16,518 nt of DNA from a virus. Taxonomy: Duplodnaviria; Heunggongvirae; Uroviricota; Caudoviricetes. The stretch lies in IMG/VR virus record IMGVR_UViG_2526164609_000012. One strand, 5' to 3'. Each line of letters starts with the position of its first letter. Position 1 is the stretch's first letter. A program made the position numbers and the translations under genes. This document shows, piece by piece, positions 12,972-13,651 of this stretch. The notes under the pieces were generated by a model. It did no database searches. It saw only the letters and a program-made list of their open reading frames with translations, and was not told where the DNA came from.

Positions 12972-13346
12972 ATGAAAAAGGATCTGAAAACGCTGGCGCT
13001 GGCGAGACTGTCAGGGTTTCGTCATAAAACGGTGAAGGTGCCGGAATGGGGGAATGTCAGCGTGGTGCTGCGGGAGCCTTCGGCAGAGGCCTGGTATCTG
13101 TGGCAGGAAGTGCTCAATGGTGATGGAGAGGATGACGATACCCTGTCGGTGGTGGCGAAAACCCGCCGTAACCTGGAAGCGGATGTGACGCTGTTCTGCG
13201 ATGTCCTGTGTGATACGGACCTGCAGCGGGTGTTCACTCCGGACGACCGTGAGCAGGTGCTGGCCGTCTATGGTCCGGTACATGCCCGGTTGCGGCGTCA
13301 GGCACTGGAACTGATCGCTGATGCAGAGTCGGCCAGAAAAAAGTAG
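12972..13346 (+). CDS. tail assembly chaperone (lambda gpG analogue)
   Basis: ATG at 12972 with AAGGGGA upstream (ORF track 12924-13346); acidic protein between the major tail gene and the tape-measure position; ends in a slippery heptamer directly before its stop. Confidence 0.65.
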   Translation: MKKDLKTLALARLSGFRHKTVKVPEWGNVSVVLREPSAEAWYLWQEVLNGDGEDDDTLSVVAKTRRNLEADVTLFCDVLCDTDLQRVFTPDDREQVLAVYGPVHARLRRQALELIADAESARKK

Positions 13347-13651
13347 CCCGCCCGGAAATTCGCTTTCTGATGCGACTTGCGCTCCGTCTGGGGCGCACCT
13401 TATCCGAACTGCGCCACAGCCTGAGTGCGAGCGAGGCGATGATGTGGATGGAGTTCGACAGGATATCCCCGCTGGGTGATGAGCGCGGGGATATCCGTAA
13501 TGCACAGATCGTGAAAGCGGTTTTCGGGGCACAGGGGATGAATGTTGCACTGAAGGACGTCATGCTCTGCTGGGGCGAGGATGAGGATAAGCCGGAGGTG
13601 GATCCGTTTGCGGCGCTGGAAGACGCGCTGAGCTTTGCAGCACAGTCATGA
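12972..13651 (+). CDS. frameshift-extended tail assembly chaperone (gpGT-like), predicted -1 frameshift product
   Basis: The -1 frame is open from 13322 through 13651 and overlaps the chaperone 3' end. Heptamer A_AAA_AAG at 13337-13343 sits in the zero frame just before the TAG at 13344-13346; slipping gives ...DAESARKK-VARPEIRFLMRLALRLG.... Confidence 0.6.
13337..13343 (+). other. -1 programmed ribosomal frameshift slippery heptamer A_AAA_AAG
   Basis: Zero-frame codons AAA (13338-13340) and AAG (13341-13343) preceded by A at 13337; the stop follows immediately. Confidence 0.6.

What the first reader, a model, noticed from the sequence alone, without database searches (positions are those of the whole stretch)
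12972..13651. Conserved-type -1 programmed frameshift in the tail assembly chaperone pair
The chaperone ORF ends ...AGA AAA AAG TAG, so the classic heptamer A_AAA_AAG (13337-13343) sits in the zero frame directly before the stop. The -1 frame is open from 13322 to 13651. This is the expected G/GT arrangement of long-tailed phages and supports the functional assignment of these otherwise unrecognisable ORFs.
Basis: partly seen in the sequence, partly recalled or inferred. Interest (0 to 1): 0.45.

Follow-up and report, generated by a model that had tools for sequence, protein, structure and literature searches.

The report
Known phage tail-chaperone G/GT frameshift site
This is the well-known -1 ribosomal frameshift that makes the long (GT) form of a phage tail assembly chaperone; this exact sequence was measured at about 7% frameshifting in 2013, and here it sits in a prophage already wrecked by insertion sequences, so it is ordinary.

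Summary
A 124-codon ORF (12972-13346) ends AGA AAA AAG TAG. A_AAA_AAG (13337-13343) lies in the zero frame next to the stop, and the -1 frame is open from 13322 to 13651.

The ORFs are easy to recognise. G matches Pfam Phage_TAC_1 over its full length (E 1e-60), is 62% identical to HK97 gp13 and matches PDB 2OB9. The -1 extension matches Phage_tail_T. The GenBank record of HK97 annotates gp14 as a -1 frameshift product.

In 37 sequence clusters of homologues from Enterobacterales, Burkholderia, Pseudomonas and Halomonas, a -1 T frame of about 95-145 codons follows an A_AAG or A_AAC slip codon.

The proposed reporter assay is already published. A 75-nt insert identical to window 13317-13391 gave 7% ± 0.79 -1 frameshifting in E. 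coli (Antonov et al. 2013, PMC3711429, Table S2).

I found no conserved downstream stimulatory RNA structure.

The site cannot matter in this genome. IS1 splits the major tail gene, an IS66-family element cuts the tape measure gene after 11 codons, and the capsid and portal genes carry frame breaks.

Verdict: real, already known, low interest.

The parts
12972..13346 (+). Gene G: tail assembly chaperone, 124 aa, zero-frame product ending ...SARKK-stop
   Evidence: Translation. Pfam PF06222 Phage_TAC_1, E 1.2e-60, residues 1-124 against profile 1-124/124. phrog_344 tail assembly chaperone. 62% identical to HK97 gp13. PDB 2OB9 'Tail assembly chaperone', E 3e-45. One aa differs from phage 2851.
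13337..13343 (+). Slippery heptamer A_AAA_AAG in the zero frame
   Evidence: Identical in all 64 near-identical relatives grouped with the window. It lies inside the 75-nt insert that gave 7% -1 frameshifting.
13344..13346 (+). G stop codon TAG (followed by C), directly 3' of the heptamer; a possible 'shifty stop' contribution
   Evidence: The stop is adjacent to the slip codon in 24 of 37 homologue clusters, including all 8 clusters whose motif allows only a single tRNA-Lys slip. A functional role is inferred, not shown.
13343..13651 (+). T segment read in the -1 frame (102 codons plus TGA). It is made only as the C-terminal part of GT (226 aa).
   Evidence: Translation. Pfam PF06223 Phage_tail_T, E 7.4e-19, on residues 152-222 of the fusion. 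phrog_14766 (224 positions) matches the fused protein end to end (2-225), E 6e-85. The peptide before the first ATG (V-x-x-P-x-x-x-F-L-M) is conserved across clusters.
13370..13372 (+). ATG that RefSeq/PGAP uses as the start of a separate 'tail assembly protein T' CDS; most likely an internal Met of GT
   Evidence: Annotation. No Shine-Dalgarno-like sequence in 13350-13366 (read). The Met is replaced in L132 (Phe), L135 (Leu) and lambda.
13349..13374 (+). Weak predicted hairpin starting 6 nt after the heptamer; not supported as a stimulator
   Evidence: Fold (z about -1.9 for the region). Only 57% of cells pair across homologues, and for the two hairpins scored together covariation is no higher than in shuffles.
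13378..13397 (+). G+C-rich 8-bp hairpin 34 nt downstream of the heptamer. It coincides with the conserved LALRxGRT codons and is not supported as a stimulator.
   Evidence: no pair changes on both sides. It is truncated in the reporter insert, which ends at 13391 yet still gave 7%.
11464..11798 (+). 5' fragment of the major tail protein gene (codons 1-112)
   Evidence: tblastn against the phage 2851 major tail protein, 99%. phrog_158 major tail protein.
11799..12566 (.). IS1 (768 bp) inserted in the major tail gene, flanked by the 9-bp duplication TAAATTCCT
   Evidence: Inverted repeats, collinearity break, NCBIfam IS1 transposase, duplication read, and its own A_AAA_AAC frameshift site at 12105-12111.
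12567..12957 (+). 3' fragment of the major tail protein gene, with a C-terminal Ig-like domain
   Evidence: Ig_3 / I-set; phrog_158.
13699..13731 (+). First 11 codons of the tape measure gene; homology to intact phages stops at 13731
   Evidence: sequence comparison with phage 2851.
13732..16518 (-). IS66-family element (TnpC 14094-15695, TnpB 15702-16193) replacing the rest of the tape measure gene within the window
   Evidence: NCBIfam NF033517 (E 1e-131) and NF033819. The IS-type match begins at 13732.

Best explanation
This is the G/GT tail assembly chaperone cassette of an HK97/lambda-type long-tailed (Stx-phage-like) prophage.

How it works:
- Most ribosomes translate G (12972-13346) and stop at TAG, giving the 124-aa chaperone.
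- A few per cent slip back one base on A_AAA_AAG (13337-13343). The single E. coli tRNA-Lys re-pairs from AAA-AAG to AAA-AAA. Alternatively the P-site tRNA-Lys slips A_AAG to AAA with the stop codon in the A site.
- Those ribosomes then read GTA and 101 more codons, giving the 226-aa GT fusion.

By homology with lambda, the G part of both proteins coats the tape measure protein and the T part recruits the major tail subunit. The fixed low G:GT ratio is what the frameshift sets.

Basis of each step:
- Shown: the sequence anatomy, the family membership, the conservation, and about 7% -1 frameshifting on an identical 75-nt insert in E. coli (published).
- Inferred: the exact slip codon, tandem versus single-tRNA slippage, and the protein functions (by homology).

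In this genome the cassette is an intact relic. The major tail gene and the tape measure gene are both destroyed, so no tail can be assembled.
For: Anatomy.

Family:
- PF06222, E 1e-60, full length, and PF06223, E 7e-19, on the fusion.
- phrog_14766 covers the fused protein end to end.
- 62% identity to HK97 gp13. The HK97 record annotates Gp14 as 'translated due to a -1 frameshift'.
- PDB 2OB9, E 3e-45.

Gene order is major tail, G, T, tape measure, as in phage 2851 and E. coli prophages at 99% identity.

Conservation:
- 100 distinct homologous loci and 37 clusters at about 90% all carry a -1 T frame of about 95-145 codons. The +1 frame stays much shorter.
- The slip site always ends in A_AAG or A_AAC: A_AAA_AAG, G_GGA_AAG, G_GAA_AAG, x_GCA_AAG or G_GGA_AAC.
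- The peptide V..P...FLM.LALR.GRT is conserved and begins before the first ATG of T.

Experiment: Antonov et al. 2013 (PMC3711429), Supplementary Table S2, Phage_TAC cluster. Their insert is identical to window 13317-13391 and gave 7% ± 0.79 -1 frameshifting in a GST-MBP reporter in E. coli MG1655. The cluster is not among those the paper names as showing internal initiation.

Lambda G/GT function and the 30:1 ratio are summarised in Atkins et al. 2016 (PMC5009743).
Against: - No direct protein evidence (mass spectrometry of the junction peptide) exists for this phage group, to my knowledge.
- The reporter measures the product, so it cannot separate ribosomal from transcriptional slippage and does not map the slip codon.
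- RefSeq/PGAP annotates T as an independent CDS from ATG 13370.
- In this window the partner genes are destroyed, so no function can be exercised here.
Confidence: 0.93

Rival explanations
1. T is a separate gene translated from its own start codon (ATG 13370), as annotated in RefSeq. The heptamer is incidental.
For: PGAP and RefSeq phage records annotate a 93-aa 'phage tail assembly protein T' starting at the equivalent ATG. A Met occupies this position in most clusters.
Against: - No Shine-Dalgarno-like sequence precedes the ATG (sequence).
- The -1 frame peptide upstream of the ATG (V-x-x-P-G/L-x-x-F-L) is conserved across clusters, so that stretch is translated.
- The Met is replaced in L132, L135 and lambda.
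- The slip motif is conserved in register in every cluster.
- The identical insert gives 7% frameshift product, and the cluster is not listed among those with internal initiation.
- The HK97 homologue is annotated as a frameshift fusion.
Confidence: 0.06
2. The -1 product arises from transcriptional slippage of RNA polymerase on the A6 run, not from ribosomal slippage.
For: The site is a homopolymeric A run. The reporter assay cannot distinguish the two routes.
Against: - From established knowledge, efficient transcriptional slippage usually needs runs of about 8-9 or more A/T. PMC3711429 states the same rule.
- Homologues keep the same -1 arrangement with motifs that contain no homopolymer run (G_GGA_AAG, G_GAA_AAG, G_GCA_AAG).
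- The direction is always -1, which PMC3711429 uses as the signature of ribosomal frameshifting.
Confidence: 0.04
3. The product is the same, but the slip differs. A single P-site tRNA-Lys slips on A_AAG while the slowly decoded stop codon TAG-C sits in the A site ('shifty stop'), instead of a tandem two-tRNA slip on the heptamer.
For: - The stop is directly adjacent to the slip codon here and in 24 of 37 clusters.
- All 8 clusters whose motif cannot support re-pairing of the P-site tRNA (x_GCA_AAG, G_GTA_AAG, A_GAA_AAG) have the stop adjacent.
- A_AAG shiftiness and shifty stops are documented in E. coli (PMC5009743).
Against: - Family members with canonical heptamers tolerate stops 1-10 codons away: lambda, mEp390, and Burkholderia and Xenorhabdus loci.
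- The 8 supporting clusters come from only two or three lineages, so the association is weak (hypergeometric p about 0.02 before any phylogenetic correction, my calculation).
- A_AAA_AAG alone is highly shift-prone in E. coli.
Confidence: 0.3
4. The two ORFs are one gene split by a frameshift mutation or a sequencing error, that is, a pseudogene.
For: The surrounding prophage does carry real frame-breaking lesions in the capsid and portal genes.
Against: The same split, at the same place and in the same direction, is present in functional phages (2851, YYZ-2008, HK97), in 1246 E. coli genomes and in all 37 clusters.
Confidence: 0.01

Closest known systems
Bacteriophage HK97 gp13/gp14 (tail assembly chaperone and its -1 frameshift extension)
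   Same: - G is 62% identical.
- The T frame has the same FLM.LALR.GRT peptide.
- The gene position between the major tail and tape measure genes is the same.
- The direction is -1 and the slip codon is AAG.
- The HK97 record annotates gp14 as a -1 frameshift product.
- PDB 2OB9 matches at E 3e-45.
   Different: - The HK97 motif is G_GAA_AAG with 5 codons before the stop. Here it is the canonical A_AAA_AAG with the stop directly adjacent.
- HK97 has a moron (gene 15) between T and the tape measure gene. This locus does not.
Bacteriophage lambda G/GT
   Same: - Same Pfam families (PF06222, PF06223), same gene order and a -1 shift on a heptamer ending AAG near the end of G.
- Low efficiency: lambda G:GT is about 30:1 (PMC5009743), against 7% measured for this sequence.
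- No conserved downstream structure was found here.
   Different: - Only 18% identity in G.
- The lambda motif is G_GGA_AAG, 5 codons before the stop, with a longer T of 144 codons.
G/T genes of long-tailed Stx phages and O157 prophages (phage 2851, YYZ-2008, Stx2a_WGPS6)
   Same: - 99% nucleotide identity. G differs by 1 aa and T by 2 aa, and the heptamer and stop are identical.
- An insert identical to this sequence is the 'Phage_TAC' construct assayed by Antonov et al. 2013.
   Different: Those phages have intact major tail and tape measure genes. Here IS1 and an IS66-family element have destroyed both.
E. coli dnaX and IS1 / IS3-family -1 frameshift sites
   Same: They use the same or a near-identical slippery heptamer (dnaX A_AAA_AAG; IS1 A_AAA_AAC, present in this window at 12105). 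All depend on E. coli tRNA-Lys.
   Different: dnaX reaches about 50% with an upstream Shine-Dalgarno-like element and a downstream hairpin. No such conserved stimulators were found here, and the efficiency is about 7%.

Membership tests
Conserved tail assembly chaperone frameshift (lambda G/GT type; Xu, Hendrix & Duda 2004) | Two overlapping ORFs lie between the major tail protein gene and the tape measure gene | tested here: met
   The order is major tail fragments 11464-11798 and 12567-12957, G 12972-13346, T to 13651, tape measure start 13699. The order is the same in phage 2851 and E. coli ECO2947.
Conserved tail assembly chaperone frameshift (lambda G/GT type; Xu, Hendrix & Duda 2004) | [quoted passage not shown] | tested here: met
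   A_AAA_AAG at 13337-13343 lies within the 25-nt overlap 13322-13346.
Conserved tail assembly chaperone frameshift (lambda G/GT type; Xu, Hendrix & Duda 2004) | The downstream ORF is in the -1 frame, lacks convincing initiation signals of its own, and is conserved upstream of any start codon | tested here: met
   The -1 frame is open from 13322 to 13651. No Shine-Dalgarno-like sequence precedes ATG 13370. The pre-ATG peptide is conserved in 37 clusters, and the Met is absent in some.
Conserved tail assembly chaperone frameshift (lambda G/GT type; Xu, Hendrix & Duda 2004) | The arrangement is conserved in homologues | tested here: met
   The arrangement holds in 100 distinct loci and 37 clusters from phages, IMG/VR and genomes of many genera. 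The only exceptions are two evident pseudogenes, L109 and L122.
Conserved tail assembly chaperone frameshift (lambda G/GT type; Xu, Hendrix & Duda 2004) | A frameshifted fusion product is made at a low, fixed level | not testable with these tools
   Not run here, but published: an insert identical to window 13317-13391 gave 7% ± 0.79 in a GST-MBP reporter in E. coli (PMC3711429 Table S2). Virion or lysate proteomics for this phage group were not found.
Pfam PF06222 Phage_TAC_1 / PF06223 Phage_tail_T (lambda/HK97 G and T protein families) | Score above the curated gathering thresholds | tested here: met
   PF06222 scores 203 bits against a cut-off of 25. PF06223 scores 68.4 bits against a cut-off of 25.9 on the fused protein.
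Functional tail assembly module (needed for the frameshift to have a role in this genome) | Intact major tail protein and tape measure genes as binding partners of G and GT | tested here: not met
   IS1 with a 9-bp duplication splits the major tail gene. The tape measure gene ends after 11 codons at an IS66-family element. The capsid/protease and portal genes also carry frame breaks and an in-frame stop (ORF coordinates).
dnaX-type stimulated -1 frameshift | A conserved upstream Shine-Dalgarno-like element and a downstream hairpin at 5-9 nt | tested here: not met
   No Rfam family matches. The predicted hairpins fold no better than shuffles (z about -1.9) and show no covariation (95/500 and 187/500 shuffles reach the observed values). 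No Shine-Dalgarno-like match is visible in 13317-13336.

The most novel reading that the evidence does not exclude
The stop codon directly 3' of the slip codon may be a selected part of the signal in the HK97-like chaperone family (a 'shifty stop'). It would allow lineages with degenerate motifs (x_GCA_AAG-stop) to frameshift by a single P-site tRNA-Lys slip, and it would tune the G:GT ratio through termination efficiency (TAG-C here). My survey shows the association (8 of 8 degenerate-motif clusters have an adjacent stop). It rests on only two or three lineages and no experiment.
Probability: 0.3. Interest if true: 0.3.

Novelty: already known. Interest (0 to 1): 0.08.

Why it matters
It adds nothing new biologically. 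The G/GT frameshift has been a textbook case since 1993 and 2004, and this very sequence has a published efficiency.

Its practical value is for annotation. RefSeq/PGAP and most Stx-phage records still list G and T as two independent genes. They should carry a ribosomal-slippage join giving a 226-aa GT product.

The cassette is also a useful landmark. It fixes the identity and orientation of the tail module, and so makes the IS1 and IS66-family disruptions of the neighbouring genes easy to recognise as prophage decay.

Tried and rejected
1. Downstream stimulatory RNA structure.
- Folding 13344-13460 gives a weak hairpin (13349-13374) and a G+C-rich hairpin (13378-13397), with z only about -1.7 to -2.0.
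- On 35 diverse homologues neither helix shows covariation, and pairing is no better than in shuffles.
- The G+C hairpin overlaps the conserved LALRxGRT codons, lies 34 nt from the slip site, and is cut off in the reporter insert that still gave 7%. I rejected it as a stimulator.

2. Rfam scan of the whole window: no family reached its gathering score.

3. Upstream Shine-Dalgarno-like stimulator: nothing convincing in 13317-13336. A GGAGAGG is present in the 67%-identity group only, too close to the site to fit the dnaX spacing. I did not pursue it.

4. The search for related loci with the 9-sequence alignment failed because no stretch was conserved enough. It worked with 6 closer sequences.

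5. Source genome. Neither the IS1 / major tail junction nor the tape measure / IS66-family junction occurs in any of 5426 complete E. coli genomes, so the source strain remains unidentified. A Shigella or draft E. coli origin is only a guess.

6. I did not use the large protein-database searches or structure prediction. Pfam, PHROGs, PDB and BLAST against phages had already settled the identity.

7. The simple terminator scan did not report the hairpin plus T-run at 13660-13680. I read it from the sequence only.

Full report
**Observation**

- An ORF starts at ATG 12972, preceded by AAGGGGA about 8 nt upstream. It runs 124 codons to TAG at 13344-13346.
- Its last codons are AGA AAA AAG. The heptamer A_AAA_AAG therefore occupies 13337-13343 in the X_XXY_YYZ register needed for a -1 tandem slip.
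- The -1 frame is open from 13322 to the TGA at 13649-13651.
- After a slip the next codon is GTA (13343-13345). The products are G (124 aa) and a 226-aa fusion GT.

This is not a chance arrangement.
- AAAAAAG occurs 8 times in the window. From those coordinates and the ORF list, only this copy lies in the slippery register of a real gene.
- I scanned both strands for a slippery heptamer with a long upstream ORF, a nearby zero-frame stop and a long open -1 frame. Three sites pass.
- Those sites are this one, the classical IS1 InsAB' site A_AAA_AAC at 12105, and one hit on the opposite strand of the Rz lysis gene (plus-strand 1032-1038) that is probably spurious.

**Identity of the ORFs**

They are not 'otherwise unrecognisable'.
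- G matches Pfam PF06222 (Phage_TAC_1) over its full length at E 1.2e-60.
- The fused protein also matches PF06223 (Phage_tail_T) at E 7.4e-19.
- PHROG 14766, a 224-position 'tail protein' family, aligns with the fused GT protein from residue 2 to 225 at E 6e-85. The fusion is therefore already a recognised protein family.
- The G part matches the solved structure 2OB9, 'Tail assembly chaperone', at E 3e-45.
- By tblastn, G is 62% identical to HK97 gp13. The HK97 GenBank record annotates gp14 as 'translated due to a -1 frameshift'.
- At the DNA level, 12900-13731 is 99% identical to long-tailed Stx phages (2851, YYZ-2008, Stx2a_WGPS6) and to prophages in 1246 of 5426 complete E. coli genomes.
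- In those records the two ORFs are annotated as separate genes, 'phage tail assembly chaperone' and 'phage tail assembly protein T', without a slippage join.

**Context**

The window is the late region of such a prophage, collinear with phage 2851 at 96-99%. The gene order is:
- lysis genes, HNH endonuclease, and small and large terminase;
- a capsid/protease gene and a portal gene;
- head-tail connector genes, tail terminator and major tail protein;
- G, T and the tape measure gene.

The prophage is dead.
- A 768-bp IS1 (11799-12566) with its inverted repeats and a 9-bp target duplication TAAATTCCT splits the major tail gene after codon 112.
- Homology to intact phages stops at 13731, only 11 codons into the tape measure gene. 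An IS66-family element on the minus strand begins there and runs to the end of the window.
- The capsid/protease gene has a frame break near 5680-5722. The portal gene has an in-frame stop at 8009-8011 and a frame break near 8860 (ORF coordinates).
- G and T themselves are nearly untouched. They differ from phage 2851 by 1 and 2 amino acids.
- Neither IS junction occurs in any complete E. coli genome.

**Conservation**

I collected homologous loci from three sources: annotated phages, IMG/VR and one genome per species.
- Among 100 distinct G-T sequences, the -1 frame continues about 94-106 codons beyond the G stop in nearly all, while the +1 frame stays much shorter. The two clear exceptions, L109 and L122, have disrupted G genes.
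- After clustering at about 90% there are 37 informative clusters. They come from Escherichia, Enterobacter, Klebsiella, Kosakonia, Pantoea, Erwinia, Serratia, Pectobacterium, Xenorhabdus, Rahnella, Burkholderia, Pseudomonas and Halomonas.
- Every cluster has a slip site ending in A_AAG or A_AAC at the very end of G. The motifs are A_AAA_AAG (19 clusters), G_GGA_AAG (3), G_GAA_AAG (6), x_GCA_AAG / G_GTA_AAG / A_GAA_AAG (8), and A_AAA_AAC or G_GGA_AAC (2).
- The direction is always -1.
- The -1 peptide that follows is conserved from its first residues (V-x-x-P-G/L-x-x-F-L-M-x-L-A-L-R-x-G-R/K-T). This conservation begins upstream of the Met that annotation pipelines take as the start of T.
- That Met is replaced in L132, L135 and lambda.

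These observations argue for translation through the junction, not for independent initiation. There is also no Shine-Dalgarno-like sequence before ATG 13370.

**Experimental status**

Antonov et al. 2013 (NAR 41:6514, PMC3711429) did the following:
- They predicted a 'phage tail assembly chaperone' cluster of 41 frameshifted genes similar to HK97.
- They cloned two of these genes between GST and MBP.
- They measured 7% and 6% frameshifting in E. coli MG1655.

[quoted passage not shown] GTC TGG, with 7% ± 0.79. This 75-mer matches window 13317-13391 with no mismatch. The cluster is not among those the paper names as showing internal initiation in the parallel His-tag assay.

The biology of the lambda prototype is summarised in Atkins et al. 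2016 (PMC5009743):
- G and GT are made at about 30:1.
- The G portions bind the tape measure protein, and the T portion binds the major tail subunit.
- Both proteins are absent from virions.
- The review also states that A_AAA_AAG is the most shift-prone heptamer in E. coli, because the single tRNA-Lys pairs better with AAA than with AAG.

**Stimulators**

Folding the downstream RNA gives two hairpins. One is weak and starts 6 nt after the heptamer (13349-13374). The other is G+C-rich and lies 34 nt downstream (13378-13397). Their energies are only about 1.7-2.0 sd better than shuffles.

On an alignment of 35 diverse homologues, neither helix shows covariation, and pairing does not exceed the shuffle controls.

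The G+C hairpin coincides with the conserved LALRxGRT codons. It is also truncated in the reporter insert that still gave 7%.

Rfam finds nothing in the window. As in lambda, the heptamer appears to work essentially on its own.

One feature might contribute: the stop codon directly 3' of the slip codon.
- It is adjacent in 24 of 37 clusters.
- It is adjacent in all 8 clusters whose motif allows only a single tRNA-Lys slip.
- This fits the classical 'shifty stop' idea. However, it rests on two or three lineages and remains an inference.

**Mechanism, committed**

About 93% of ribosomes terminate at TAG and release G. About 7% slip -1 on A_AAA_AAG and make GT.

By homology, many copies of G plus a few of GT coat the tape measure protein. 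The T domain then nucleates polymerisation of the major tail protein around it, and the chaperones leave.

The basis of each part is as follows:
- Shown: anatomy, family membership, conservation, and the reporter efficiency on the identical sequence.
- Inferred: the exact slip codon, tandem versus P-site slippage, ribosomal versus transcriptional origin (favoured by the non-homopolymeric motifs in homologues and the invariant -1 direction), and the protein functions.

In this particular genome the cassette has no partners left and is a relic.

**Verdict**

It is a bona fide member of the lambda/HK97 G/GT frameshift family, already known and already assayed. Interest is low. The only practical consequence is that public annotations of this widespread prophage module lack the slippage join.

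Noticed in passing
window 11799-12566 (slip site 12105-12111): A complete IS1 (768 bp, 23-nt inverted repeats, 9-bp target duplication TAAATTCCT) is inserted in the major tail protein gene. It carries its own -1 programmed frameshift site A_AAA_AAC between InsA (11854-12129) and InsB (12048-12551), so the window holds two classical -1 frameshift sites 1.2 kb apart.
   Followed up: yes
window 13699-16518: The tape measure gene stops matching intact phages at 13731, after 11 codons. An IS66-family element on the minus strand follows (TnpC 14094-15695, TnpB 15702-16193). The window ends before its far end, so a simple insertion cannot be told from a deletion. This junction is absent from all 5426 complete E. 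coli genomes.
   Followed up: partly
window 5363-7299 and 7511-9933: Head genes are pseudogenised relative to phage 2851. The capsid/protease gene changes frame near 5680-5722. The 859-aa portal-family gene has an in-frame stop at 8009-8011 and a frame break near 8860. Its C-terminal part (8872-9933) contains tandem ~40-aa repeats (…PVPRDGRDYDPEVLKQAVNDAV…) with 54 gap positions relative to phage 2851. E. coli ECO2947 also annotates this gene as 'frameshifted'.
   Followed up: partly
window 12553-12957: The C-terminal part of the major tail protein is an immunoglobulin-like domain (Pfam Ig_3 / I-set, E about 1e-8). PHROGs also link it to Hoc-like decoration proteins.
   Followed up: no
window 13660-13680: A hairpin AACCGC-TGAG-GCGGTT followed by a run of T lies between the end of T and the tape measure start. 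It looks like an intrinsic terminator and is identical in phage 2851. The simple terminator scan did not report it. HK97 has putative terminators annotated nearby, after genes 12 and 15.
   Followed up: no
window 1710-2051: An ORF with a TonB C-terminal domain (PF03544, E 1e-14) sits between the lysis genes and the HNH/terminase genes. This region is largely not shared with phage 2851, so it may be a moron.
   Followed up: no
window, whole: AAAAAAG occurs 8 times against about 2 expected from dinucleotide-preserving shuffles (0 of 200 shuffles reach 8). Only the copy at 13337 is in the slippery register of a gene. The excess is unexplained.
   Followed up: partly
L034 (IMG/VR UViG_3300029191_000019), L109 (Leclercia adecarboxylata NCTC13032), L122 (Ca. 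Symbiopectobacterium endolongispinus): Three aberrant homologues. In L034 the -1 T frame runs on for 319 codons, so the T stop may be lost or T fused with the next gene. L109 and L122 have disrupted G genes and look like decaying prophage copies.
   Followed up: no
L005 and L084-L092 (67%-identity group), about 2-9 nt upstream of the A run: This subgroup has a GGAGAGG or GGCGAGG Shine-Dalgarno-like stretch immediately upstream of AAAAAAAAG. The window has GCAGAGTCGGCC instead. I did not test whether it modulates frameshifting.
   Followed up: no
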